Of a stretch of DNA of 64,000 bases, positions 8,644-23,164 are shown piece by piece; position 1 is the first letter of the stretch; each line of letters starts with the position of its first letter. The notes under the pieces were generated by a model. It was not told the origin of the DNA, searched no databases, and was given only the letters and a program-made list of their open reading frames with translations. The position numbers and the translations under genes were made by a program. The stretch is taken from positions 893 to 64,892 of the forward strand of contig JBAYWE010000001.1 in NCBI GenBank assembly GCA_041674185.1, read 5' to 3'. Source of the stretch: Minisyncoccota bacterium (GTDB lineage: Bacteria; Patescibacteriota; Minisyncoccia; UBA6257; JAGOQP01).

Positions 8644-10215
8644 TTATTCTTGAGTTTCTTCTTCTGAGGTTTTAATTTCAGGAGATGGATCTATATGTGA
8701 ATCATGAGACTTTTGAAGAGAACCTCGAATTAAATCCTTTAATGCGTCCACATTCATTCGTTCTTCGATAGGCTTTCGCTCCCGTGGTGCCGACGAGACA
8801 TGACCATGGTCTCGTTTTTTCTGTATATCAGAAGACACATCTTTCTTAAGCACTTCGTGTAACGAACGTTCATCTCGACGAGATACCATTTCTCCCGCCT
8901 TATCTCCTACAGAGCCATAATAATCAGTACGAATCTTTTCGTCAACTCGTTCTTTAGAAATAGAGTATTTTGAACGTGACGATTGTAAAATAGCATCAAA
9001 AAGTGAGGGTGCGGGCAGTGGAGGTGGAGGAAGGGTTTTTGCAGAAAAAGGACGCGACGAAACACCATCTACCATAATACGCGCATAAATATGTGCGTTT
9101 GGTAAATTTACAAAATCACTTGCCAAAAATTCTTCAAAAAATTCTTTCTCCAAAAATTCTGCGTCATCCGCTCCCACCCGAAATGAAATCATAGTTCCCA
9201 CGTTTCCAAAAATAGCATCGCGCACTTTCGTATTTTTATCCTGTTCTAATTGAGCGATGTATTGATGCGCCACAATAAGAGAAAGACGATATTTACGAGC
9301 CTCAGAAAGAATTGTCGCGAATGATTCAGTTGCAAAGTTCTGAAATTCATCAACATAGAGAAAGAAATCCTTACGTTCCGCCATGGGAATATCTACACGA
9401 GACATAGCAGCTAACTGCAATTTCGTAATCAACATAGCTCCCAATAAATTAGAATTATCTTCTCCAATTTTTCCTTTAGACAAATTGATAATAATAATTT
9501 TTCCTTCATCCATTGCTTGCCGAAAATCAAAGGAAGATTTTACCTGTCCAACAATACTACGAATTAACGGGTTGGTAACAAATTGTCCAATCTTGTTTTG
9601 AATAGCGGCAACTCCTTCTGTTTCCAACTTCTGCGTATATTTTGCAAACTCATCAACCCAAAACGAACGGACGCTCGGATCTTGCAGATCATTCACAATT
9701 TTACGACGAAATTCTTTATCAGAATACATCTTCATAACCCCCAGTAACGTTGACCCAGGATATTCAAGGAGTGCCAACAAGGTATTATTGAGAATATATT
9801 CCATACGCGCAGACCATGCATCTGGCCATATTTTTTTAAAAACCGACATAAGCCCCGATGCCACCAAATGACGCATATCAAAATCAACCCGTTCTAGAGG
9901 ATTAAACGCAACAGGAAAATTAATATCTGCGGGGTTTATATAAATAACATCATCAACTCGATCTTCAGGAATAAAATGTAAAATTTCTTCAGCTGTTTCT
10001 CCATGAGGATCCACAAAACAGACACCGTGTCCCGCCTTCACATCAGAAATAACCATGTTTAAAAGAAGGGTGCTTTTCCCAGTACCTGATTTTCCAATAA
10101 TATACGTATGCTGACGACGATCTGCTAGTTTGATGCCAAACGTACGCTCTTGATTACGAAAATTAGTTTTTCCTAAATATAATATAGAATCTGCCATAAT
10201 AGTTTTCTCATTCAA
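8644..10215 (-). CDS. HerA/FtsK/VirD4-superfamily P-loop ATPase (DUF87 / T4SS coupling-protein-like), soluble
   Basis: Walker A IIGKSGTGKSTLL, then FVDPHGE (HerA/TraG-type motif), Walker B FFLYVDEFQNF, and a C-terminal Pro-rich/charged tail (LPPPPLPAPS...). No N-terminal TM segment. Confidence 0.6.
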   Translation of the reverse strand: MNEKTIMADSILYLGKTNFRNQERTFGIKLADRRQHTYIIGKSGTGKSTLLLNMVISDVKAGHGVCFVDPHGETAEEILHFIPEDRVDDVIYINPADINFPVAFNPLERVDFDMRHLVASGLMSVFKKIWPDAWSARMEYILNNTLLALLEYPGSTLLGVMKMYSDKEFRRKIVNDLQDPSVRSFWVDEFAKYTQKLETEGVAAIQNKIGQFVTNPLIRSIVGQVKSSFDFRQAMDEGKIIIINLSKGKIGEDNSNLLGAMLITKLQLAAMSRVDIPMAERKDFFLYVDEFQNFATESFATILSEARKYRLSLIVAHQYIAQLEQDKNTKVRDAIFGNVGTMISFRVGADDAEFLEKEFFEEFLASDFVNLPNAHIYARIMVDGVSSRPFSAKTLPPPPLPAPSLFDAILQSSRSKYSISKERVDEKIRTDYYGSVGDKAGEMVSRRDERSLHEVLKKDVSSDIQKKRDHGHVSSAPRERKPIEERMNVDALKDLIRGSLQKSHDSHIDPSPEIKTSEEETQE

Positions 10216-10248
10216 AATATATTATCCACACGGATGAAATATGTAAAA

Positions 10249-11484
10249 TTATTCAAGGGGTAAATTGGGAGGAGGACTACCGCGACGAGAATCAATTTTT
10301 TGCAAACGGGGTGCACGCGTTACATTCGCAGGAGCATGAAATAAAGTAGCAAGTTCTTCAGTATTTAACACAGGAAGTTTTTCATCAGCCGTTCTATTAG
10401 ACATACCAAAATAACGAGCAACATATGAATCATAAATCATACGCTTTTTTGAAAGAACGACTGATTTTTTATACCAAGGAAAAATTTTTCCCGGAATCCC
10501 CGCATAGAACGGCATAGAGGTAGGTTTTAATGCATTCATGGTTTGCGTATTAAATTGTTGAAATGCAGCCATAACAGTTCCCCAATTTTGACCATCAAAG
10601 GTATCTTTCTTATCAATATAAATAAAACGCATGGTCATTTCGAATATATGCTTCGAAACTTTATTCTCTACAGCTTTAATAATATCTTTCGTATTAGCAG
10701 AAACACCAGACATATTTAATATCCCCGCCTCATTTGCTTTCACCCCCTTTTTTTCTAATAATTCTTTTACTTCCTTTTCTGCTTCTTTTGCGATATCTAC
10801 GCCCGTTGGCTTTCCCGTAGGACTAACAAGAAGTTGAATCCAAATTTGTTCTTCTCCTTTTAATTTAGACATAATTTCAAATAACGGAGAAAGTGGGTCT
10901 ATTCCTTTTTCGTTCTTCATATCATTTCGCTCTTCAAAAAAATCATACGTACGAATGGGATAGGGATTTGCTTTTGCTAATTCAAACGCTGCGCCAAATA
11001 TATCATACGCATCATTCGGAAGAAGAGAGGGCATTTCCGCGGTATAGTCGGTCCCTGGAACAATTTCGGCCTCTGGGTATTGGGCATATAAAGCGGCTTC
11101 AACCATATTACGACGTGCGGTAGGAAGTCGTATAAAAAAATGAATACCATCAGCACGTCCTACGATTTCAAAAGAAATCCAGAGTTCAACTTTTCCATCT
11201 AAATATTTATCAAATGATTTAATACCAAACGAATAAATACCATAGAGCGTGGTAAATACATGTTCCATGGACTTTGGGGTGCGTACGTTATCAGCAGGAA
11301 ACCGTATCTCAAGCATTTCCCATTTTACATTCTTTAAAAATTCTCCTCGAATATAAAACAAGCGCACTTTCCAAAAAAGCGCAATAAAAAATACGGGAAC
11401 CATAAACCACGCAACCGTGGAAAGGGTCTGATTCAGACTCGAAAATGCAATTTGTATAAAGTCCACCATATCCGTATGAGACAT
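10249..11484 (-). CDS. Hypothetical single-pass membrane protein, ATPase partner
   Basis: 411 aa. N-terminal TM helix (VAWFMVPVFFIALFW) followed by a large soluble domain. 34 nt upstream of, and co-oriented with, the ATPase gene. Confidence 0.45.
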   Translation of the reverse strand: MSHTDMVDFIQIAFSSLNQTLSTVAWFMVPVFFIALFWKVRLFYIRGEFLKNVKWEMLEIRFPADNVRTPKSMEHVFTTLYGIYSFGIKSFDKYLDGKVELWISFEIVGRADGIHFFIRLPTARRNMVEAALYAQYPEAEIVPGTDYTAEMPSLLPNDAYDIFGAAFELAKANPYPIRTYDFFEERNDMKNEKGIDPLSPLFEIMSKLKGEEQIWIQLLVSPTGKPTGVDIAKEAEKEVKELLEKKGVKANEAGILNMSGVSANTKDIIKAVENKVSKHIFEMTMRFIYIDKKDTFDGQNWGTVMAAFQQFNTQTMNALKPTSMPFYAGIPGKIFPWYKKSVVLSKKRMIYDSYVARYFGMSNRTADEKLPVLNTEELATLFHAPANVTRAPRLQKIDSRRGSPPPNLPLE

Positions 11485-15046: not shown

Positions 15047-18000
15047 TTATTTTTTTCTTGCTCCCATCCATAAACGCTTCCCGTCTAATTTGGTATCTAT
15101 CTCTGCATCAAATTTTTCCATCTTTCCAATGGTAAGGACACGAGCCCCCACTTCCTTCTTAATAAATGCTTCGTGTATGCGTACCATTGCTTCAATATCC
15201 GAGGTACTTGAGAGTGCAAGAATAATACTATCCTTGGGTACGTATCCGGCATCTTGGCGTAATTCTTGTACTGCCCGAGTCAACTCACGCAATAATCCCT
15301 CCGTTTTTAACTCAGGAGTAATAGTAGTATCAAGAATAAACATCTCTCCATCAACAAGCTCTGAAGAGAAGGTAATTTCTTTTACATTCACTTCATCACG
15401 AATAATTTCAAGAATATCGGGAACAAAAGATCCTTTTGGTTTTTTACCTTGAAGAGTGAGTTTTGCAAGTGGTTGGCGTACTTTAATTTGTAATTCTGCT
15501 CGTTTTGCAAGAACACTACTCGCTATATCACGCGCCCACGACATAACCGATACTAATCCCTCATCAGAAGCTTTTATCTTAAATGTAGGAACAAGTTCTA
15601 AATGAACAGAATCCTTTTTTGAGAAACTATGATCTTTTTTAAGCGATTGATAAATACTCTCTGCAAAAAATGGAGTAAAGGGAGCAATTATTTTTGAAAA
15701 TTGAAGCAGTGTATAGGCTAAAACCTGAGAAGCACTTTGTAGATCTTTTATATTTTCTGGTTTTTGGAATCGACGACGTGAACGACGAATATACCATCGA
15801 GAAAGATCATCAATAAAAGATTCAATAGCAATAGTTGCCTTCGTAAGATCATACATATCCATGTTAGTAGTCACTTCACGCGTCATAAGAGCAAGACGCA
15901 CAAGAATCCATCTATCTAATACATACGGAGTAGAAGGCATATCAATAAGATTTCTTTTATCTAATCCATACATTTGCAAAAATGCAAACGAATTATAGAT
16001 AACCATAAGCGTACGACGAAATGCCTTTCCCACCTCCTCTTCATCAAAATTCTTTGGATCTCCTGGCGCATTGACGGTATAAAAATACCACCGAATAGAA
16101 TCCACTCCATATTTTTGTATTAAAGCCCACGGATCAACAATATTTCCTTTTGACTTAGACATTTTTTGTCCATGTTTATCATGAATAAGTCCCAAACAAA
16201 TAACATTTTTATACGGAGTAGGAAGATCTAATGCGGTCGCAACAGCAAGAAGCGTATAAAACCACCCTCGAGTTTGATCCACTGCTTCAGAAATATAATC
16301 AGCGGGATACAGTTCTGGTTTTGATATCTTCTGTGACTTTGAATTCTTTTGAGCAAAGGGAAAGTGTCCTTGTGCAAACGGCATGGATCCCGAATCAAAC
16401 CAAACGTCGGCAACTTCTTTTACTCGACGCATGGGCGCATGACATTTTTCACATGCAAAAGTAATCTCATCAATATACGGACGATGTAAATCCCCCAACC
16501 CCTGTTCATTTCGAGGAAAAGGAACAAAAGAAACATCCATACTCTGCGCAGTTTTTATAAAATCACCCCCTCTCTGTTTCTTATACGTAATGCTTTCTTC
16601 TTGACTCTTTCCCGAAAGAACTGACTCAAGCATCCATAATGGATACTCATGACTCACCACAAGAACATTTTTACCGGCATATTTCTTCTCAATATCTTTC
16701 ACAAAATCATACATACGTGCAGCAACAGCTATAAGCGCTTCTCCTTTTTCTGGGAATTTTAGAAATCGATCCTCGTAGGTAGGAAAGAGAGCATCATATC
16801 GATCAACCGACTGCCCCTCAAGTTCTCCTAGGTATATCTCCCGCAATCGTTTATCAAAAACTACTTTTGCTCCCGTGAACTGTGAGACAATTTCAGCAGT
16901 TTGATGAGTACGATAAAGATCAGAAGAAATAATAATATCAATATGCTTCTGTACAAGTTTCTGAGCAGTTCGCTTTACATCCCCTATTCCCTTTTTAGTA
17001 AGAGGAAATTGTACACTCTTTTTTACATCACCGCTAATAATGTGTTTCGTGTTATGGAGTGCTCCTCCATGACGCATCAGTATGAATCGAGTCATACTTT
17101 TAGGTTGTGTAGCAATTAATTCTTCTTTCGATCCCAAAACCTGAATGTGGGTACAGTGGGTGCATCGCCACACCGGGAGTGGAGTCCCCCAGTACCGTTC
17201 ACGAGAAAAATTCCAATCTTTTACCTCCTTGAGCCATTCTCCAAATCGCCCCTGCTTAATATGACTCGGAACCCAGTTCACAGACTCGTTTGAAGCAATA
17301 AGTTTCTTTTTCAGTTGAGTCATCTCCACAAACCATGAGGTGCGCGCATAATATAACAAGGGAGTTCCACAACGCCAACAATACGGATATTCATGTTCAT
17401 ATGGAACAGTAGATACGAGCCTCTTTTGTTTTTCAAGGTATTCAAAAATAATTTTCTCAGTTTCATTACTTTTCACAAACCGTCCTGCAAGATCAGGAAC
17501 ACCTTTTATAAATTTGCCCGCTTCATCTACGGTATGATACTGGGGTAATCCTATTTTTTTACCCAATGTATAGTCATCCTCTCCATACATAACTGCGGTA
17601 TGCACAACCCCTGTTCCATCAGTCGTAGTAACAAAATCAGCGCTATATACTTTATATGCGGTCTCTGATTTTTTGAATTCCGCAATATCAAACAAAGGTT
17701 CATATGAAAGACCCACAAGATTTTTTCCTAAAATATTCTTATGTATAGTTTCAATTTGTTCATGAGGAAACACAGCACGAACCAACTCTGACGCAATAAC
17801 ATATAATTCAGATTTTCCATCTACACGAATCACATCGTATGAAATATCCTCTCCCACAGCTAACGCAACATTTCCTGGAAGTGTCCACGGCGTTGTCGTC
17901 CACGAAAGAATATAGGTATTCTCTCCTATGTGAATTTGCTTGTTGTTTATTGCTTGTTGTTTGTTATTTACAAGAAGTTTAAACTTTATATATACCGATT

Positions 18001-18613
18001 TATCAGTCACTGTTTTATAACCCTGTGCGATTTCATGGGAAGAAAGAGCGGTTCCGCAACGAGGACACCACGGTACCACTTTATGTCCTTCATAAAGAAG
18101 CCCCTTGAGCGACAACTGTTTAATAATCCACCATAATGACTCTATATAGGTATTGTGATAGGTAACATACGGATCTTCCATATCTAACCAAAATCCAATA
18201 CGCTCAGTTAGTTTTTCAAACTCAGATTTATGCACCCCAGCCGATTCTCTGCACTTTTGATTAAAAGCAGAAATACCATACGCCTCAATATCTTTTTTAG
18301 AAGAAAGTTCTAATTGTTTTTCAACTTGTAATTCTACAGGAAGTCCATGAGTATCCCACCCAGCCTTACGGGGTACCACAAAACCTTGCATCGTTTTATA
18401 GCGGACAAAAACATCCTTAAAAACGCGCGCAAGAACATGGTGTATTCCCGGGCGTCCATTCGCCGTCGGAGGACCTTCCCAAAAATTAAACTGCTTTACT
18501 TTTTTTCCTTTTGCAGGAGTTATTGATTTTTTAAAAATCCCCCGCTCTTTCCAAAGTGCGAGTACTTTTTCCTCTATTTCAGGGAGGTTGAATGATTTGA
18601 TGTTTCGTAACAT
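15047..18613 (-). CDS. ileS: Isoleucine--tRNA ligase (type 2) with an inserted histidine-phosphatase (PGAM-like) domain
   Basis: Class I HIGH motif (PPTANGRPGIHHV), KMSKS (KMSKSKGN), CP1 editing region and C-terminal anticodon-binding region. Start placed at ATG 18613 (MLRNIKSFNLPEIEE), not the ORF-track 18784 whose first 57 codons are low-complexity. About 180 aa between VLGS..EEL and DLHRP carry the RHG...R...SHE histidine phosphatase motifs. Confidence 0.9.
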   Translation of the reverse strand: MLRNIKSFNLPEIEEKVLALWKERGIFKKSITPAKGKKVKQFNFWEGPPTANGRPGIHHVLARVFKDVFVRYKTMQGFVVPRKAGWDTHGLPVELQVEKQLELSSKKDIEAYGISAFNQKCRESAGVHKSEFEKLTERIGFWLDMEDPYVTYHNTYIESLWWIIKQLSLKGLLYEGHKVVPWCPRCGTALSSHEIAQGYKTVTDKSVYIKFKLLVNNKQQAINNKQIHIGENTYILSWTTTPWTLPGNVALAVGEDISYDVIRVDGKSELYVIASELVRAVFPHEQIETIHKNILGKNLVGLSYEPLFDIAEFKKSETAYKVYSADFVTTTDGTGVVHTAVMYGEDDYTLGKKIGLPQYHTVDEAGKFIKGVPDLAGRFVKSNETEKIIFEYLEKQKRLVSTVPYEHEYPYCWRCGTPLLYYARTSWFVEMTQLKKKLIASNESVNWVPSHIKQGRFGEWLKEVKDWNFSRERYWGTPLPVWRCTHCTHIQVLGSKEELIATQPKSMTRFILMRHGGALHNTKHIISGDVKKSVQFPLTKKGIGDVKRTAQKLVQKHIDIIISSDLYRTHQTAEIVSQFTGAKVVFDKRLREIYLGELEGQSVDRYDALFPTYEDRFLKFPEKGEALIAVAARMYDFVKDIEKKYAGKNVLVVSHEYPLWMLESVLSGKSQEESITYKKQRGGDFIKTAQSMDVSFVPFPRNEQGLGDLHRPYIDEITFACEKCHAPMRRVKEVADVWFDSGSMPFAQGHFPFAQKNSKSQKISKPELYPADYISEAVDQTRGWFYTLLAVATALDLPTPYKNVICLGLIHDKHGQKMSKSKGNIVDPWALIQKYGVDSIRWYFYTVNAPGDPKNFDEEEVGKAFRRTLMVIYNSFAFLQMYGLDKRNLIDMPSTPYVLDRWILVRLALMTREVTTNMDMYDLTKATIAIESFIDDLSRWYIRRSRRRFQKPENIKDLQSASQVLAYTLLQFSKIIAPFTPFFAESIYQSLKKDHSFSKKDSVHLELVPTFKIKASDEGLVSVMSWARDIASSVLAKRAELQIKVRQPLAKLTLQGKKPKGSFVPDILEIIRDEVNVKEITFSSELVDGEMFILDTTITPELKTEGLLRELTRAVQELRQDAGYVPKDSIILALSSTSDIEAMVRIHEAFIKKEVGARVLTIGKMEKFDAEIDTKLDGKRLWMGARKK

Positions 18614-18666
18614 ATAGAACTTCACTATACAAAAAAAAGGAGGAGAAGTGAAGTAAAATAAAAATA

Positions 18667-19749
18667 TTGACACATATAAATAAAAGATGTACGTTAAACA
18701 CACCAAAAAATAACGGAGGCACCTTGAAAATTTTAGTAGATGAAAAGAGAGCGGTTGAGGTCTTTTCAAAATTAGTAGAGGCATTTAAAAATAAACTGCC
18801 TCCCTATGATACTGCACCACTCCCTCAGATACTCACCCCCACACAGATACAAAAGAAATCCGCAGAACATGCACGATTTCTATTCTGTTGTTGTTACTAT
18901 ATGCGCGGAGGTATTCGAAGTGATACAGCTATGAAAAGTTTAGCGGTATTATACGAAAACCATCCTGAATATTTTGATTCAGCGTATGTCGCACAAGCAG
19001 ATGAAAAATCACTACTCCAGTCTTTAAAACAACATCTGCAGGAAGTGAAGCTGAATTATAACGCAAGTGTAATACCACAGTTTTGGATTGATAATTTCAA
19101 AAAAATCAATACATTTTGGGGTGATAATCCAGCACAACTCATTCAAGATGCGGATTATGAAGAAATCACAGAACGCATTATGAATAGCGGAAAAATAAAA
19201 TCAGAAAATCCACATGGATTCTTTGGTTTTAGAGAAAAAATGGTCAGTATGATCATTTATTTTCTCGTAGATGCGGAATTTATAGATCCTCTACATTTTC
19301 CTGTGCCCATTGATTTCCACGCATTGAGAATCATAACGGCACACGAAATTCTTGATACAGAAACAAATACCAAAACAAATATTCTTTCACCAGAATATTT
19401 ACAAGCGGCGCGAGATATATCAGTGAAATTCTGCTTAGAACACAATGAAAGCCCACTCGACTTATGTGGCGCATTGTGGCTTCTCTCACGTACGTGGTGT
19501 AGCCTTCACCCAGGAAATGCAAGTGAAGTTGGTATATATCACGGAAGGAAAACTCACATAGGAGTTTCAAAAAAAAGTAGGTGGACGCAGAAGAACGCAT
19601 TCACTTATGAGGCAACGTGTGGAAGATGTCCTATAGAAAAAACGTGTAAGTATCTCATACCAGCAGGATATTATTACCGACAAGGAAAGATAATTATCCG
19701 CGGAGAAAGAAATAACCATCCACAACTCAATCTCTTTTCAACAAAATAG
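18667..19749 (+). CDS. Hypothetical protein, possible HhH-GPD (endonuclease III-like) base-excision repair fold
   Basis: 360 aa. PVPIDFHALRI resembles the VDTHVxR catalytic segment of HhH-GPD glycosylases. Cys cluster near the C-terminus (CGRCPIEKTC). ORF-track start is TTG; start uncertain. Confidence 0.35.
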   Translation: MTHINKRCTLNTPKNNGGTLKILVDEKRAVEVFSKLVEAFKNKLPPYDTAPLPQILTPTQIQKKSAEHARFLFCCCYYMRGGIRSDTAMKSLAVLYENHPEYFDSAYVAQADEKSLLQSLKQHLQEVKLNYNASVIPQFWIDNFKKINTFWGDNPAQLIQDADYEEITERIMNSGKIKSENPHGFFGFREKMVSMIIYFLVDAEFIDPLHFPVPIDFHALRIITAHEILDTETNTKTNILSPEYLQAARDISVKFCLEHNESPLDLCGALWLLSRTWCSLHPGNASEVGIYHGRKTHIGVSKKSRWTQKNAFTYEATCGRCPIEKTCKYLIPAGYYYRQGKIIIRGERNNHPQLNLFSTK

Positions 19750-19805: not shown

Positions 19806-20927
19806 TTACAACGTCACTTGAACTTGAGAAACAAGGCTGTGTGTAGTCGTCACAACTTCTTTTCCATGAGCAACTATATACATACCCTTTTTATCATTAA
19901 TAACTCGCTGAAGGTGCGGAATAATTCTTTCTTCTAAAAGCACTATAAGCGATTGGAATGAGTTTAGTGGTCCTCGCAAAGAAAACGGCGAATCATCCAT
20001 TCCCAGAAATCCCTGGTCAAATAAATATAAAACCTTTAAAAAATAGCGGGATTGATAATGAAATGCCTCAGAAATTTTACTATCAATAATTCGTTTTCTA
20101 TGCTCTTTCTTAAATTCTTTATCATCCTCAAGTTTAAAGAGGTTAATAAGATCTCCTTGTGAATCACGTTCGCGAAGATGCTTCCTCACAAGATCTTGAA
20201 ATTTCTTAACCGGATAATCTTGTAAGACAGCAGACACAAACCAGTCACGCAATTCTTGTCCACGAATTCTATGATCACGCAACCTTCCTAATTCACAGGC
20301 AACGCCAAAAGAAATGACATTATTTTCAGTTGCGGTTTGAATATACCGAGGGACGTTTGTGAATCGTAATGCCTGTTTTATCGTCTCAGGGGATTTCATC
20401 ATTATCCGAGAAAATTCAGCAAGAGACATGTCCTTTCTTTTATAGAATCGAAAGCATCGCGTGATGAACAAAGCTTCTTCATCTGGACGGACTGGGTCAC
20501 GCACGTTTTCAGATATTTGTAACTTGATAGCCTCCTCAGCTGAAATACCCACGCATAAAACAGCTTTAATACGATTTCTAAATTCTTTATCGTATCTTCC
20601 TTGTTCAATAAGTAATCGGGTAGCTCGAAGACGTCGTTCTCCCGCGATTAAAAAACAGTATTGTCCCTGATACAAAACGAACTGAGAATCATCAAGGTGG
20701 GTCTTAAATATCTCGCTAAAATGAGCAATGTATTTTTTCATCTCACGATAGTCGAGACAAGCAACCGTAACAGCATTAATGAGTCCATGTTCAAAAATAT
20801 TTTCCGCAAGACTAGGGATATTTTCAAATATTTTACGTATTTGCGGAAGTACATTAATTTTGAATAGAGACAGAAAGACATCCTGAGTCTTATATTGCTT
20901 TGATTTGTACTCCATGAGTTCCTCCAC
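19806..20927 (-). CDS. ParB-like nuclease domain protein
   Basis: ParB/Srx N-domain motif LIAGERRLRATRLL. 373 aa with an uncharacterised C-terminal half. Confidence 0.55.
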   Translation of the reverse strand: MEELMEYKSKQYKTQDVFLSLFKINVLPQIRKIFENIPSLAENIFEHGLINAVTVACLDYREMKKYIAHFSEIFKTHLDDSQFVLYQGQYCFLIAGERRLRATRLLIEQGRYDKEFRNRIKAVLCVGISAEEAIKLQISENVRDPVRPDEEALFITRCFRFYKRKDMSLAEFSRIMMKSPETIKQALRFTNVPRYIQTATENNVISFGVACELGRLRDHRIRGQELRDWFVSAVLQDYPVKKFQDLVRKHLRERDSQGDLINLFKLEDDKEFKKEHRKRIIDSKISEAFHYQSRYFLKVLYLFDQGFLGMDDSPFSLRGPLNSFQSLIVLLEERIIPHLQRVINDKKGMYIVAHGKEVVTTTHSLVSQVQVTL

Positions 20928-21046: not shown

Positions 21047-21328
21047 CTATTTCTTATCGCGGAATGGAATATACCCAAAAACGTCTTCAACTAATTTTTT
21101 TACCCAATTTACAACGGCCATAGAAATAGTTTCACCGCCTGCTGAAACAAGGAGATGGTCCTGACGTCCATGGTGGGGAACATCTTTCCCAATTACCCAT
21201 CCTCCACGAGATCCATCATTATGTCCAAGCTCCAACTCTTCATGGATAAAATGCTGTACACCATCCATATTCGTTGGTGGAACTATTGGATTATCAGAAA
21301 CAATAAATAATACATACACTTTTTTCAT
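21047..21328 (-). CDS. Hypothetical small protein
   Basis: 93-aa ORF co-oriented with and upstream of the ParB-like gene. No motif recognised. Confidence 0.25.
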   Translation of the reverse strand: MKKVYVLFIVSDNPIVPPTNMDGVQHFIHEELELGHNDGSRGGWVIGKDVPHHGRQDHLLVSAGGETISMAVVNWVKKLVEDVFGYIPFRDKK

Positions 21329-21436
21329 ACAACCACCTTTCTTATTTAGTTATAGTTATAAAATAAAAGTCTGTTTAGCTTTGATTTACTAAAATAACGA
21401 TAACACCAAAATATAATTGTGTCAATATTTAAAACA

Positions 21437-21549
21437 GCGGGGAGATTGGTCTCACCTCTCGTCGCGCCGTCGCAAAACACGAAATGCGGGGAGATTTCAC
21501 GTCGTTACACCACTCTTCTTTAAAAATTAGGCGGGGAGATTTCACGTCG
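21437..21549. repeat. Three degenerate direct copies of the tmRNA 3'-end segment (att-like scars): gcggggagatt at 21437-21447, gcggggagatttcacgtcg at 21486-21504 and 21531-21549
   Basis: The 11-mer gcggggagatt is the reverse complement of the tmRNA T-arm/acceptor 3' half (AAUCUCCCCGC). A fourth, genuine copy lies inside ssrA at 21718-21728. The two 19-mers are identical and 26 nt apart. Confidence 0.5.
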
Positions 21550-21673
21550 CACTTCGTGCTCTTTAGAAACCCTCGGTTTCTAACATCCTTCGGATTGTTT
21601 TCCTACACGGTGAACTACAAGTTCCCCGACCCCCTCCGATTCAATCTCCCTAACACCGTCCACTTTATTACCA

Positions 21674-21710
21674 AACAAAAACACCCAACAAGTGGGTGTT
21701 TTTGTTTGGT
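21674..21710 (-). terminator. Perfect 16-bp stem hairpin immediately 3' of tmRNA
   Basis: ccaaacaaaaacaccc-aacaagt-gggtgtttttgtttgg, abutting the ssrA 3' end at 21713. Confidence 0.45.
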
Positions 21711-21712
21711 AG

Positions 21713-22037
21713 TGGAGGCGGGGAGATTGAACTCCCGTCCATAGATATCTTCAAAAACCGTCTACACGCTTAGTTGATAAACAACAATGATTTAGTTCTA
21801 TGTTTAACCATGATCTACGAACCACTCAACCATAGCGATTCTCATATATAACACCGGTAAAATCCCTATGAGAAATCGGGGACCGATGCCTTTCATAAAA
21901 GAAAGGATAACCCGTGTTCGTTCTTAGGCAAACGCGAGAGCCATAGGTTTGGCAATTATTGGTTTGATTGGTTTACAAGACAATCGGCTTGGCATGCAAG
22001 TTTTCAAAGGAGTACCTCTGTCAAAGCGTACGCCCCC
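21713..22037 (-). ncRNA. ssrA: tmRNA (SsrA), ~325 nt
   Basis: Minus-strand 5' end GGGGGCGUACGCUUUGACAGAGG...UUGCAUGCC (matches the conserved tmRNA GCAUGCC region). 3' end GGACGGGAGUUCAAUCUCCCCGCCUCCAC(U)A has a tRNA-like T-arm and an acceptor with G3-U. Internal tag ORF GCC AAA CCU AUG GCU CUC GCG UUU GCC UAA (AKPMALAFA*) at 21924-21953. smpB is immediately upstream on the same strand. Confidence 0.75.
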
Positions 22038-22064: not shown

Positions 22065-22526
22065 TTATCTGCTCTTAGTGAAACGATCTATATCACGTTT
22101 TGTTTCACGTTTTTTGATGGTTTCACGCTTATCACGCTGTTTTTTACCACGCGCTAATGCTACCTCAACTTTTATTCTACCACTTTTTTCACGTATCTGC
22201 AAGGGTATGAGTGAAAATCCCTTTTCGCGTGTTTTCTCAAGTAATTCCCCTATTTCCTTCTTGTGTAACAGTAGTTTACGAGCATGGAGCGGATCATATT
22301 CTGAAGTAGTATTTTTTTCTTGGTAGGGAGTAATATGCGCATTTACCAACCACGCCTCATCTCCATACACCTTTATATATGAACCAAGAAGAGACGCCTT
22401 ACCGGTACGTATGGACTTCACCTCTCCCCCAGACAATACTAACCCCGCCTGATACGTTTCAAGAATTTCATATTCCATGCGCGCCTTTCTATTCTGTATT
22501 GATTCCATAGAAGAAGTATATCTCAT
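22065..22526 (-). CDS. smpB: SsrA-binding protein SmpB
   Basis: IQNRKARMEYEILETYQAGLVLSGGEVKSIR...LLLHKKEIGEL, a canonical SmpB. Adjacent to ssrA. Confidence 0.85.
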   Translation of the reverse strand: MRYTSSMESIQNRKARMEYEILETYQAGLVLSGGEVKSIRTGKASLLGSYIKVYGDEAWLVNAHITPYQEKNTTSEYDPLHARKLLLHKKEIGELLEKTREKGFSLIPLQIREKSGRIKVEVALARGKKQRDKRETIKKRETKRDIDRFTKSR

Positions 22527-22618: not shown

Positions 22619-23164
22619 ATGAATCACTTCTTCAACAAAGAAGACTTAGATTTAAAAACTGTATTTACCCAAAGCTTAAGCACCGTTCTTAAATGGGATA
22701 ACCACAGGAAAAACGGTACGTATATAGAAGAAATCTCGAAAACCAACCTTGTTTCGTTCAACTTCTTGAAAGAATTTTTAAAGACAGCCTTAGTAGGATT
22801 ATCAATATTAGAAAAATTCTCCCTACGAAACTCTTTTGAAGGAAGCCTTGAAGGAGGAGAACAGGAAATAAAAATTCTAAACACAGATCAGCAACATGCT
22901 ATTCTTGATCTATATGAACTAGTGGGAAAAGAAAGAGAAAAAGAATTGAATTATTACAGAGAAAAGATTATTAGTCTCCTCACTATAGTTCAAATTATCC
23001 ATACCCAAATCAGAACAAAAGAAATCCCAGATGTATCTCCTTTACTCGGCGGATTGTGGTTCTGTGTTGACGAAAAAGGATTTATAGAAACTATCTCGGG
23101 ACCACAGCTTCTAGAAAAAAACATTGAAAAATTAAAACATTTCTTAGCAAAAGAGGAATTATAA
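22619..23164 (+). CDS. Hypothetical protein
   Basis: 181-aa ORF with no recognisable motif. Sits between smpB and infC. Confidence 0.35.
   Translation: MNHFFNKEDLDLKTVFTQSLSTVLKWDNHRKNGTYIEEISKTNLVSFNFLKEFLKTALVGLSILEKFSLRNSFEGSLEGGEQEIKILNTDQQHAILDLYELVGKEREKELNYYREKIISLLTIVQIIHTQIRTKEIPDVSPLLGGLWFCVDEKGFIETISGPQLLEKNIEKLKHFLAKEEL

What the first reader, a model, noticed from the sequence alone, without database searches (positions are those of the whole stretch)
21437..22037. tmRNA gene followed by four degenerate copies of its own 3' end: stacked integration scars at an ssrA att hotspot
ssrA (21713-22037, minus) is recognisable by its 5' GGGGGCG...GCAUGCC and 3' GGACGGGAGUUCAAUCUCCCCGCCUCCA ends, with smpB directly upstream. 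Within 280 nt downstream, the 11-mer gcggggagatt from the T-arm/acceptor 3' half recurs three more times (21437, 21486, 21531). Two of those are extended identical 19-mers 26 nt apart. Partial direct repeats of a tmRNA 3' end are the classic footprint of tyrosine-integrase elements that integrate into ssrA. Several tandem copies suggest repeated integration and excision. No integrase remains, so the adjacent genes may be remnant cargo.
Basis: partly seen in the sequence, partly recalled or inferred. Interest (0 to 1): 0.55.

Follow-up and report, generated by a model that had tools for sequence, protein, structure and literature searches.

The report
Mobile mini-cassettes stacked behind a tmRNA gene
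A genuine tmRNA gene in a Paceibacteria (CPR) genome is followed by one intact and two truncated gene-less cassettes of about 190 bases that each end in a copy of the tmRNA 3' end; relatives show these cassettes insert, swap and spread at exactly this spot, although no integrase is found anywhere nearby.

Summary
ssrA lies at 21712-22037 (-), called by both ARAGORN and Rfam (109 bits). The 11-mer AATCTCCCCGC from its 3' end recurs exactly three times within 275 nt and nowhere else in 64 kb (about 0.6 expected).

In 14 related genomes the copies are right ends of two families of gene-less ~190-nt cassettes, X and Y. Each cassette has:
- a bidirectional terminator;
- an inverted copy of the tmRNA 3' end, giving a 96-nt palindrome over the ssrA end;
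- a body of about 100 nt;
- a direct copy of the tmRNA end, starting mid-T-loop.

X and Y occur in either order, bounded by perfect 17-18-nt repeats, and are swapped between close relatives. Y is 97% identical in two hosts whose SmpB is 68% identical. These are mobile units, not neutrally decaying scars. The window holds one intact X plus two truncated right ends.

No recombinase is encoded in the window or beside ssrA in any relative, so the enzyme is inferred to act in trans. The adjacent gene block is variably present but not att-bounded, so "remnant cargo" is unproven.

Verdict: a new variant (miniature, integrase-less) of the known ssrA integration hotspot.

The parts
22065..22508 (-). 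smpB (SsrA-binding protein), directly upstream of ssrA
   Evidence: Pfam SmpB 3.6e-52. The 147-aa product is on record as SmpB of a Candidatus Paceibacterota MAG.
21712..22037 (-). ssrA, a one-piece tmRNA gene with tag peptide AKPMALAFA*
   Evidence: ARAGORN. Rfam RF00023, 109.4 bits, full-length.
21712..21728 (-). att0: the last 17 nt of tmRNA (AATCTCCCCGCCTCCAC), from T-loop position 4 to the 3' end. This is the sequence duplicated at cassette ends.
   Evidence: It is identical in all relatives fetched by the metagenome pattern scan.
21669..21711 (-). T_X: an A-tract / GC core / U-tract hairpin (19-nt arms) immediately after tmRNA. It looks like a bidirectional intrinsic terminator supplied by cassette X.
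   Evidence: I1, 100% complementary arms. Conserved in L004, L053 and L046.
21638..21664 (-). anti-att: an inverted copy of the tmRNA 3' end (aGTGGAcGGTGttaGGGAGATTGAAtc). Together with att0 and T_X it forms a 96-nt near-perfect palindrome (21638-21733).
   Evidence: I2. Duplex -30.9 kcal/mol, 0 of 200 shuffles as good. Hairpin -58.9 kcal/mol, z -10.6. The Wolfebacteria relative L064 has compensating changes in both the T-arm and the anti-att.
21529..21711 (-). Cassette X, intact (183 nt): T_X, anti-att, a body with two conserved hairpins, the right-end motif TGCGACGTGA, and att1
   Evidence: nhmmer E 1.2e-60 against the X profile. 81-84% identical to X in L004 and L053, against 74-86% for tmRNA.
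21529..21541 (-). att1: a 13-nt direct copy (AATCTCCCCGCCT) at the right end of X
   Evidence: The same truncation point and the same downstream context occur in L003.
21484..21526 (-). Truncated second X-type right end (…aacgacgtga + att2, 11-mer at 21486-21496)
   Evidence: nhmmer hit to X profile positions 147-189, E 2.6e-5. Fuzzy match to the X end with 2 of 21 mismatches.
21437..21483 (-). Truncated cassette right end with a Y-type junction (…gagaCCAATCTCCCCGC; att3, 12 nt at 21437-21448). Homologous to the att2-att3 module of L003.
   Evidence: Alignment of W with L003. The CCAATC junction matches that of Y cassettes. The nhmmer Y profile itself did not hit here, so the assignment to Y is tentative.
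21397..21425 (-). Promoter-like site (TTGACA-17-TATCGT with TG) for the 93-aa gene, starting 12 nt after att3
   Evidence: Conserved in L003.
21047..21328 (-). 93-aa ORF of unknown function. It lies right behind the att array in W, L003 and L068.
   Evidence: No match in Pfam, PHROGs or PDB. Only one homologue cluster among 5.8 billion proteins.
19806..20927 (-). ParB-like protein (373 aa). It belongs to the variable block but is probably a chromosomal gene.
   Evidence: PHROGs ParB-like 3.5e-9 and weak Pfam HTH_ParB. 38-49% identical in L003 and L004. Distant homologues lie in housekeeping contexts.
18667..19749 (+). 360-aa ORF of unknown function. Present in W and L004; absent in L003, L053 and L055.
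   Evidence: No family or PDB match.

Best explanation

Each cassette carries a copy of the tmRNA 3' end from the T-loop onward. On insertion the cassette supplies the new 3' end of tmRNA, its own bidirectional terminator and an inverted copy of the tmRNA end. The previous 3' end copy is pushed downstream. Serial insertion, replacement and partial deletion gave the window's array: one intact X cassette (21529-21711), then a truncated X-type end (21484-21526), then a truncated end with a Y-type junction (21437-21483).

Shown: the cassette anatomy, precise occupied/empty sites with 17-18-nt direct repeats, both stacking orders, cassette exchange between close relatives, recent horizontal spread of Y, and absence of any recombinase in cis.

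Inferred: that the reaction is site-specific recombination by an enzyme supplied in trans (a host or element recombinase encoded elsewhere), in the manner of cis-mobilizable elements.
For: (1) The att copies are embedded in longer homologous cassette ends, not isolated motifs.

(2) L004 reads tmRNA-[T_X-X-17-nt DR]-T_Y. L046 reads tmRNA-[T_Y-Y-18-nt DR]-T_X-X'. L003 reads tmRNA-T_Y-Y. L049 reads tmRNA-[Y-like-18-nt DR]-terminator. Each family is therefore found precisely inserted in front of the other's terminator.

(3) W and L003 (SmpB 91% identical) share the same truncated att1 and the att2-att3 module, but W has X and L003 has Y in front of it.

(4) Y in L003 and L046 differs at 5 of 165 positions outside one hairpin (97% identity). 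Their SmpB is 68% identical and their tmRNA 71%. That pattern indicates recent horizontal transfer.

(5) X is 81-84% identical among W, L004 and L053, where tmRNA is 74-86% identical and smpB third codon positions are 55-60%. It is not neutral debris.

(6) X and Y are found only directly downstream of ssrA in 0.76 Mb of held sequence. The tRNA-Leu control is negative.

(7) Precedent: Dehalococcoides ssrA islands insert mid-T-loop, leave tandem 20-bp repeats, and include integrase-less units that the authors interpret as cis-mobilizable elements (PMC3146451). The CIME/accretion concept is reviewed in PMC5704250.
Against: - No integrase or recombinase domain occurs in any of the 43 window ORFs of 170 aa or more, nor next to ssrA in any relative.
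- No integrase-bearing element or circular form with X or Y ends was found in IMG/VR.
- A duplex circle of about 190 bp would be a stiff recombination substrate.
- All observed arrangements could formally derive from an ancestral X-Y-X array by differential deletion. Only the 97% identity of Y across distant hosts argues strongly against purely vertical descent.
- L064 has the terminator and anti-att but no direct repeat, so part of the cassette may be an ssrA-linked functional structure rather than a mobility feature.
- The sample is small: three or four X copies and three Y copies.
Confidence: 0.58

Rival explanations
1. Functional 3'-trailer modules of the ssrA locus. On this view the terminator, the anti-att and the structured body are selected RNA (or DNA) structures serving tmRNA expression or processing, for example a long precursor stem that sequesters the 3' end, or insulation of ssrA. 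The direct copies would arise from unequal or illegitimate recombination among modules, not from a mobile-element life cycle.
For: - The anti-att pairs with the last 21 nt of tmRNA in a 96-nt hairpin (-58.9 kcal/mol, z -10.6).
- It is present in X, in Y and in the Wolfebacteria locus L064, which has no direct repeats. There it tracks that lineage's own T-arm variant with two compensating pair changes.
- The internal Y hairpin shows compensatory double changes at 6 of 9 pairs across three sequences.
- X and Y are conserved as well as tmRNA.
- The region is G-rich on the tmRNA-sense strand only, with forward-only GCGAS repeats.
Against: - The anti-att lies beyond a strong terminator, so it should rarely be transcribed with tmRNA.
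- No conserved promoter precedes the cassette bodies.
- The X body alone does not fold better than shuffles (z -1.6).
- There is no Rfam match.
- Several relatives with the identical tmRNA 3' end lack any such trailer (L047, L048, L050, L056, L068).
- This view does not explain the precise 17-18-nt direct-repeat-bounded reciprocal insertions, or 97% Y identity between hosts with 68% identical SmpB.
Confidence: 0.15
2. Homing-type spread driven by a small GIY-YIG nuclease. An autonomous cassette (terminator, GIY-YIG ORF, X-type right end, att copy) cuts cassette-free ssrA 3' ends. Repair copies the cassette, using the tmRNA gene as the left homology arm and the att copy as a portable right arm. 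X and Y would then be ORF-less derivatives mobilised in trans.
For: - In L068 an 89-aa GIY-YIG ORF (Pfam 5.6e-16) lies between the tmRNA 3' end and an X-type right end (gcgatgTGAaatctccccgc). Its stop codon is at the att boundary.
- A 37%-identical GIY-YIG ORF follows ssrA in the distant L048/L051.
- These are the only two lineages with such ORFs in 758 kb held.
- PHROGs labels both as homing-endonuclease-like.
- Precedent: T4 SegB, a free-standing GIY-YIG homing endonuclease in a tRNA gene cluster (PMC2330249).
- It would explain the absence of integrases.
Against: - The window has no GIY-YIG ORF at ssrA.
- The proteins are catalytic-domain-only (79-89 aa) with no DNA-binding domain.
- L048/L051 have no direct repeat.
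- The X and Y bodies show no similarity to the ORF beyond chance: 74 to 437 of 500 shuffles score at least as high.
- 17 nt is short for a homology arm.
- Homing does not normally create direct repeats.
Confidence: 0.12
3. Classical reading. Each copy is the attR scar of a large integrase-bearing island or prophage whose interior was later deleted, and the neighbouring 93-aa / ParB-like / 360-aa genes are left-over cargo.
For: - Tandem 3'-end fragments are the known footprint of ssrA islands (PMC3146451).
- Viral contigs do carry tmRNA 3'-end att sites, though of other taxa.
- The gene block between ssrA and ileS is variable: absent in L053 and L055, and different in L003, L004 and L068.
- In L068 the homologue of the 93-aa gene is flanked by an X-type end and a degenerate second one.
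- Dehalococcoides integration modules include a parB homologue.
Against: - Independent deletions would not leave the same ~190-nt unit with identical internal architecture in W, L004 and L053 (X) and in L003, L046 and L049 (Y).
- No large element or integrase was seen in any relative.
- There is no distal att copy beyond 21437 in the window.
- Distant homologues of the ParB-like protein sit among housekeeping genes.
Confidence: 0.1
4. The repeats are protein-binding sites (operators, iterons or parS-like sites) for the downstream 93-aa / ParB-like operon, and resemble the tmRNA end only by coincidence.
For: - The copies lie just upstream of the promoter of the 93-aa gene.
- L003 has four copies in the same place.
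- A ParB-like gene follows.
Against: - Identity to the tmRNA end extends to 17-18 nt in relatives.
- The copies are embedded in cassette-end homology.
- L004 has the ParB-like gene but only the single attR copy followed by a terminator.
- L053 has copies but no downstream genes.
Confidence: 0.03

Closest known systems
Dehalococcoides ssrA-specific genomic islands (ssrA-GIs; McMurdie et al. 2011, PMC3146451)
   Same: Insertion in the middle of the tmRNA T-loop. Tandem arrays bounded by direct repeats of the ssrA 3' end (20 bp there, 17-18 nt here). A conserved motif immediately upstream of each repeat. Some units lack an integration module and were interpreted by the authors as cis-mobilizable. 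A parB homologue is nearby.
   Different: Those islands span kilobases to tens of kilobases, carry cargo genes, and typically carry a serine recombinase (DsiB) module. Here the units are about 190 nt, gene-less and structured, carry an inverted copy of the att, and no recombinase is seen in any of about 14 loci. Homology between the two parB genes was not tested.
Cis-mobilizable elements (CIMEs) and accretion at ICE/IME att sites (reviewed in PMC5704250)
   Same: Elements flanked by attL and attR that encode no recombination or transfer functions. Tandem accumulation at one att site.
   Different: CIMEs are recognised as deletion derivatives of a known ICE or IME that supplies the integrase. 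No parent element or integrase is known here, and the size is one to two orders of magnitude smaller.
tRNA/tmRNA-gene integration by integrases (Williams' sublocation scheme; from my own knowledge and as cited in PMC3146451)
   Same: The element carries the 3' part of the target gene, so the gene is restored. The displaced 3' fragment marks the far end.
   Different: The defining integrase gene adjacent to att is absent.
Folded single-strand att sites: CTXphi attP(+) used by XerCD (PMC3442271), and integron attC sites (attC from my own knowledge)
   Same: Two inverted copies of the recombination sequence, separated by a spacer, can fold into an imperfect hairpin that mimics the duplex target. 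After integration both arms lie together at one end of the element. Small, even ORF-less, cassettes stack in tandem.
   Different: The target here is ssrA, not dif or attI. There is no IntI, attI or Pc, and no R''/R' core motifs. Single-strand recombination is pure conjecture here.
Free-standing GIY-YIG homing endonucleases at tRNA genes (T4 SegB, PMC2330249)
   Same: A small GIY-YIG ORF sits immediately beside a conserved tRNA-like gene in two relatives (L068 and L048/L051).
   Different: There is no such ORF in the window. The proteins lack a DNA-binding domain. Homing normally leaves no direct repeats.

Membership tests
tmRNA (ssrA), Rfam RF00023 | Covariance-model match above the gathering score over the full model | tested here: met
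   109.4 bits against 47, model positions 1-374.
tmRNA (ssrA), Rfam RF00023 | tRNA-like domain plus an internal tag reading frame ending in hydrophobic residues | tested here: met
   ARAGORN tag AKPMALAFA*. The G3-U pair and T-arm can be read directly in the sequence.
Integrase-borne genomic island at a tRNA/tmRNA gene | Inserted DNA bounded by the gene and a direct repeat of its 3' end | tested here: met
   13-nt direct repeat in the window. Perfect 17-18-nt direct repeats in L004, L046 and L049.
Integrase-borne genomic island at a tRNA/tmRNA gene | Occupied versus empty site among relatives | tested here: met
   L003 and L046 have tmRNA followed by T_Y, whereas L004 has tmRNA-X-DR-T_Y. The reciprocal holds for Y in L046.
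Integrase-borne genomic island at a tRNA/tmRNA gene | Tyrosine or serine recombinase gene inside the element next to att | tested here: not met
   No recombinase domain in 43 window ORFs. None between ssrA and ileS in any relative.
Cis-mobilizable element (CIME) | Flanked by attL and attR, with no recombination or transfer genes | tested here: met
   X and Y have no ORFs (translations) and are bounded by direct repeats.
Cis-mobilizable element (CIME) | Related autonomous element using the same att and supplying the integrase | tested here: not met
   None found in the loci fetched from genome, metagenome and viral collections. The search was limited by exact-pattern scans.
Cis-mobilizable element (CIME) | Demonstrated excision or mobilisation | not testable with these tools
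   Needs reads or experiments. The indirect evidence is 97% Y identity across hosts whose SmpB is 68% identical.
Integron gene cassette / attC | IntI integrase, attI and Pc platform | tested here: not met
   No integrase in the window.
Integron gene cassette / attC | Imperfect-palindrome recombination site at the cassette boundary | tested here: inconclusive
   The att0-terminator-anti-att palindrome exists, but it lacks the RYYYAAC/GTTRRRY cores (read).
IMEX (Xer-exploiting elements, CTXphi type) | Integration at dif by XerC/D | tested here: not met
   The target is the ssrA T-loop and 3' end, not dif.
Free-standing GIY-YIG homing endonuclease cassette | GIY-YIG ORF within the inserted unit | tested here: not met
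   Absent in the window. Present only in L068 and L048/L051.
MITE / IS200-IS605 PATE | Terminal inverted repeats or subterminal hairpins, a short target duplication or none, and multiple dispersed genomic copies | tested here: not met
   Inverted ends exist, but the flanking repeat is 17-18 nt of the target gene. No copies occur away from ssrA.

The most novel reading that the evidence does not exclude
X and Y may be a previously undescribed class of miniature, gene-less mobile cassette specific to the ssrA T-loop of Paceibacteria and other CPR bacteria. Their recombination site would be the long att / terminator / anti-att palindrome. They would be inserted either as a folded single strand (in the manner of CTXphi or attC) by a host recombinase, or by GIY-YIG-nuclease-driven gene conversion. 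A hypervariable 6-bp stem would act as a specificity or compatibility module.
Probability: 0.17. Interest if true: 0.8.

Novelty: new variant of a known kind. Interest (0 to 1): 0.55.

Why it matters
Integration at ssrA with leftover 3'-end repeats is textbook. What is unusual here is the scale and autonomy. The units are about 190 nt, encode nothing, are conserved as well as the tmRNA gene, and have moved between CPR lineages whose SmpB proteins are only 68% identical. No recombinase appears at any of the loci examined.

If confirmed, they would be the smallest att-bounded integrative units described at a tRNA-type gene. They would also give a handle on how DNA moves among ultra-small, host-dependent Patescibacteria, whose mobilome is poorly known.

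The conserved 96-nt palindrome that includes the mature tmRNA 3' end is also a testable candidate for a role in tmRNA 3' processing or in structure-specific recombination.

For annotation purposes, the finding warns that tmRNA 3'-end fragments need not mark large islands or cargo.

Tried and rejected
- **X as a decayed GIY-YIG gene.** This was suggested by 'tagggagat' and the shared right end. Local alignment of the X and Y bodies against the L068 ORF scored no better than shuffles (74 to 437 of 500 shuffles at least as high). Rejected. Only the 10-nt right-end motif plus att is shared.
- **Known RNA families.** Rfam at gathering score gave only tmRNA and tRNA-Leu. Relaxed E-value scans of the W and L003 arrays gave only generic hairpin (miRNA-type) noise and sub-threshold tmRNA_permuted hits of 12-14 bits.
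- **Integrase-bearing elements in IMG/VR.** Six exact-pattern scans were run. The 19-mer, the X core, the Y core and both right-end junctions gave 0 hits. The 17-mer att gave 31 hits, all with other T-loops (ttcgaatc or tgcgaatc), many looking like permuted tmRNA genes of other taxa. These were uninformative for the anti-att question.
- **ParB-like gene as an island marker.** Only 4 homologue clusters were found. The distant ones lie beside hisS, rpmE and prfA, so it is not an island marker.
- **The 93-aa and 360-aa proteins.** No Pfam, PHROGs or PDB match, and almost no homologues. Structure prediction was not attempted because no usable alignment was available.
- **Antisense ORF 21484-21744 (+), 86 aa.** It spans tmRNA, the terminator and the repeats, and indels in L004 break the frame. 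Treated as spurious.
- **Distal att copy bounding the gene block.** None found between 21437 and ileS at up to 5 mismatches.
- **tRNA-Leu control.** No repeats and no complementary trailer.
- **Strand of function from G-U versus A-C pairs in the palindrome.** The counts were mixed and not decisive (read).
- **Logan contig break inside X.** Noted but not interpretable without reads.
Full report
**1. Observation**

On the minus strand the window contains smpB (22065-22508; Pfam SmpB 3.6e-52), followed after 27 nt by a one-piece tmRNA gene. ARAGORN places it at 21712-22037 with tag AKPMALAFA*. Rfam RF00023 matches at 109.4 bits against a gathering score of 47, full length.

The 11-mer AATCTCCCCGC covers the 3' part of the T-loop, the 3' strand of the T-stem and the start of the acceptor 3' strand. 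It is exact at 21718 (in ssrA), 21531, 21486 and 21437, and occurs nowhere else in the 64 kb. With one mismatch allowed, shuffles give a mean of 0.64 and never reach 5. The two identical 19-mers, 26 nt apart, are real.

The title's "four" copies are in fact three direct copies (13, 11 and 12 nt of identity) plus this inverted one. Independent Logan contigs carry the same sequence. A control, the window's tRNA-Leu gene, has nothing comparable.

**2. Source and relatives**

The SmpB protein is on record from a Candidatus Paceibacterota MAG. I assembled about 14 related ssrA loci from three sources: a genome-collection scan with SmpB, one metagenome scan with a degenerate tmRNA-end/attR pattern, and exact-protein look-ups of SmpB homologues. 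SmpB identity to the window ranges from 93% down to about 60%.

Synteny in the clade is clpB-nudix-rplT-rpmI-infC, then in the opposite direction smpB-ssrA-[variable]-ileS-secDF. All loci fetched by the metagenome pattern scan share the identical last 29 nt of tmRNA.

**3. Anatomy**

The DNA after ssrA is modular, with two families of gene-less cassettes. X occurs in the window, L004, L053/L054, probably L052 (contig ends 7 nt past the tmRNA) and, degenerate, in L046. Y occurs in L003, L046 and L049, and as a partial copy in L053. Each cassette starts immediately after ...CCTCCAC and consists of four parts.

(i) An A-tract / GC core / U-tract hairpin that looks like a bidirectional terminator. 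T_X is at window 21669-21711, with 19-nt perfect arms.

(ii) An "anti-att", an inverted and slightly bulged copy of the last ~20 nt of tmRNA (window 21638-21664).

(iii) A G-rich body of about 100 nt with a few hairpins.

In the window, X is intact (21529-21711; nhmmer E 1e-60) and ends in a 13-nt copy. Behind it lies a second X right-end fragment (21484-21526, E 2.6e-5). After that comes a fragment ending in CCAATCTCCCCGC (21437-21483), which aligns with the corresponding module of L003. The promoter-like site of the 93-aa gene follows 12 nt later.

The tmRNA end, T_X and the anti-att form a 96-nt near-perfect hairpin (-58.9 kcal/mol, z -10.6). The X body alone (z -1.6) and the distal fragments (z +0.8) are not unusually structured.

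**4. Evidence that the cassettes are inserted, exchanged and spread**

(a) Reciprocal occupied/empty sites. L003 and L046 have tmRNA followed directly by T_Y. L004 has tmRNA, then T_X-X, then a perfect 17-nt repeat, then T_Y. Conversely, L046 has tmRNA, then T_Y-Y, then a perfect 18-nt repeat, then T_X-X'. L049 has a diverged Y bounded by an 18-nt repeat and followed by another terminator.

(b) Exchange. The window and L003 (SmpB 91% identical) share the same truncated att1 (AATCTCCCCGCCT followed by AT-rich sequence) and the downstream att2-att3 module. The window has X in front of it and L003 has Y.

(c) Horizontal spread. Y of L003 and Y of L046 differ at only 5 of 165 positions outside one hairpin, terminator included. 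Their SmpB proteins are 68% identical and their tmRNAs 71%.

(d) Constraint. X is 81-84% identical among the window, L004 and L053, where tmRNA is 74-86% identical and smpB third codon positions are 55-60%.

(e) Site specificity. In 0.76 Mb of held sequence, X and Y are found only directly after ssrA.

These points make "neutrally decaying scars" untenable for the proximal unit. They support discrete mobile units that recombine within the shared AATCTCCCCGCCT.

**5. What is missing**

No integrase, resolvase or transposase domain occurs in any of the 43 non-overlapping ORFs of 170 aa or more in the window. None occurs between ssrA and ileS in any relative. Six IMG/VR scans found no element carrying X or Y cores or junctions. 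The 31 hits to the bare 17-mer belong to other taxa. The recombination enzyme is therefore inferred, not shown.

**6. Odd features that any mechanism must explain**

The anti-att is present in X, in Y and in the Wolfebacteria locus L064, which has no direct repeats at all. In L064 the T-arm reads TTCAATCCTCC and the anti-att reads GGAGGATTGAA. In the window the pair is TTCAATCTCCC and GGGAGATTGAA. That is two compensating pair changes. Other relatives with the same tmRNA end lack any anti-att (L047, L048, L050, L056, L068).

The Y hairpin between the two halves of the anti-att keeps its loop (CTGC or TTGC) and flanks, but its 6-bp stem is entirely different in L003, L046 and L049. Six of 9 pairs show compensatory double changes. 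This holds even between the otherwise 97% identical L003 and L046 copies.

GCGAS pentamers are enriched, and only on the tmRNA-sense strand: 8 in L003 and 6 in L046 against about 1.2 expected, with 0 of 500 shuffles reaching those counts.

In L068 a cassette bounded by the tmRNA end and an X-type right end contains an intact 89-aa GIY-YIG ORF whose stop codon abuts the att copy. A 37%-identical ORF follows ssrA in the distant L048/L051. These are the only two occurrences in 758 kb.

**7. Mechanism**

Most likely (about 0.58): conservative site-specific recombination at the mid-T-loop att, with the enzyme supplied in trans, in the manner of cis-mobilizable elements. Each incoming cassette restores the tmRNA 3' end, brings a terminator that insulates ssrA in both directions, and displaces the previous copy. 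Later deletions leave right-end fragments.

Rivals:
- Functional ssrA-trailer RNA or DNA modules, duplicated by illegitimate recombination (0.15).
- GIY-YIG-driven homing, with the att copy as a portable homology arm (0.12).
- Deletion remnants of classical large islands, with neighbouring genes as cargo (0.10).
- Operator or parS-like sites (0.03). This is contradicted by L004 and L053.

The most novel reading not excluded is that the att-terminator-anti-att palindrome is itself the recombination site, used as a folded single strand as in CTXphi (PMC3442271) or integron attC sites.

**8. The neighbouring genes**

The 93-aa ORF follows the array in the window, L003 and L068. In L068 it is flanked by an X-type end and a degenerate second one.

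The ParB-like gene is present in the window, L003 and L004 but is only 38-49% identical among them. It is absent from this position in L053, L055, L064 and L068. Its distant homologues lie in housekeeping neighbourhoods.

The 360-aa ORF is present in the window and L004 only.

It has no distal att copy in the window, so its status as island cargo is unproven.

**9. Comparison with known systems**

The closest precedent is the Dehalococcoides ssrA genomic islands. They share mid-T-loop insertion, tandem 20-bp repeats, a conserved motif upstream of each repeat, integrase-less units interpreted as cis-mobilizable, and a parB homologue in the integration module (PMC3146451). The present case differs in unit size (about 190 nt against kilobases), the absence of any gene or recombinase, the inverted att copy, and the host phylum.

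It fails the defining integrase criterion for a classical island. It meets the structural criteria for a CIME, but no parent element is known. It is not an integron, an IMEX or a MITE by their defining features.

I rate it a new variant of a known kind, with interest 0.55.

Noticed in passing
window 15047-18784 (-): The isoleucyl-tRNA synthetase carries a histidine-phosphatase (His_Phos_1, 1.6e-32) domain inserted between the two halves of the class-I catalytic core. The same fusion occurs in relatives L055, L060 and L064, so it is clade-wide.
   Followed up: partly
window 8644-11481 (-): A type IV secretion coupling-protein-like ATPase (T4SS-DNA_transf / TrwB domains) lies next to a 410-aa ORF with no Pfam match here. 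Its counterpart in the Logan contig is annotated DUF8128. This could be DNA-uptake or transfer machinery.
   Followed up: no
L068 1074-1343; L048 5763-5999 (-); L051 6085-6321: Small GIY-YIG nuclease ORFs (79-89 aa, 37% identical to each other) lie within 150 nt downstream of ssrA in two distant lineages, and nowhere else in 758 kb held. In L068 the ORF lies inside an att-bounded cassette.
   Followed up: partly
L003 10730-10765; L048/L051 ssrA trailer: A 15-nt loop, GTAGCTTTATGC(G/A)AA, closed by different compensated stems, occurs once as an insertion inside the L003 tmRNA and once in the L048/L051 trailer just upstream of the GIY-YIG ORF. It may be a mobile or protein-binding hairpin.
   Followed up: partly
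L052 2135-2175; L068 785-825: The tmRNAs of two relatives carry an extra ~33-nt hairpin (gttccgcctt.gc...ggcgagacaagc) in the pseudoknot region. It is absent from the window and L004.
   Followed up: no
L003 10859-11140; L046 Y; window 21437-21668: GCGAC/GCGAG pentamers are enriched 5- to 6-fold and occur only on the tmRNA-sense strand of the cassettes. They could be arm-type protein-binding sites or an RNA motif.
   Followed up: partly
L053 11400-11500: The partial Y copy has two extra hairpins inserted. One (aaaagcaaa-taat-tttgctttt) resembles the variable hairpin of the L049 Y cassette, which suggests the hairpins themselves move or are exchanged.
   Followed up: no
window ~21615-21641 (L001 end / L002 start): The two Logan contigs from SRR6484325 break inside X just after the anti-att, overlapping by 27 nt. 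L001 also differs from the window by one base within tmRNA. This could be a strain bubble or an alternative junction in that population.
   Followed up: no
L015-L045 (viral contigs): Many IMG/VR hits to AATCTCCCCGCCTCCAC are followed about 75 nt later by GGGGGCGAA..., a sequence that looks like a tmRNA 5' end. They look like permuted (two-piece) tmRNA genes or tmRNA starts on viral or proviral contigs of other taxa.
   Followed up: no
window 22619-23164 (+): A 181-aa ORF with no family match lies between smpB and the infC-rpmI-rplT cluster. It has no tblastn match in L003 or L004, so it appears lineage-specific.
   Followed up: no
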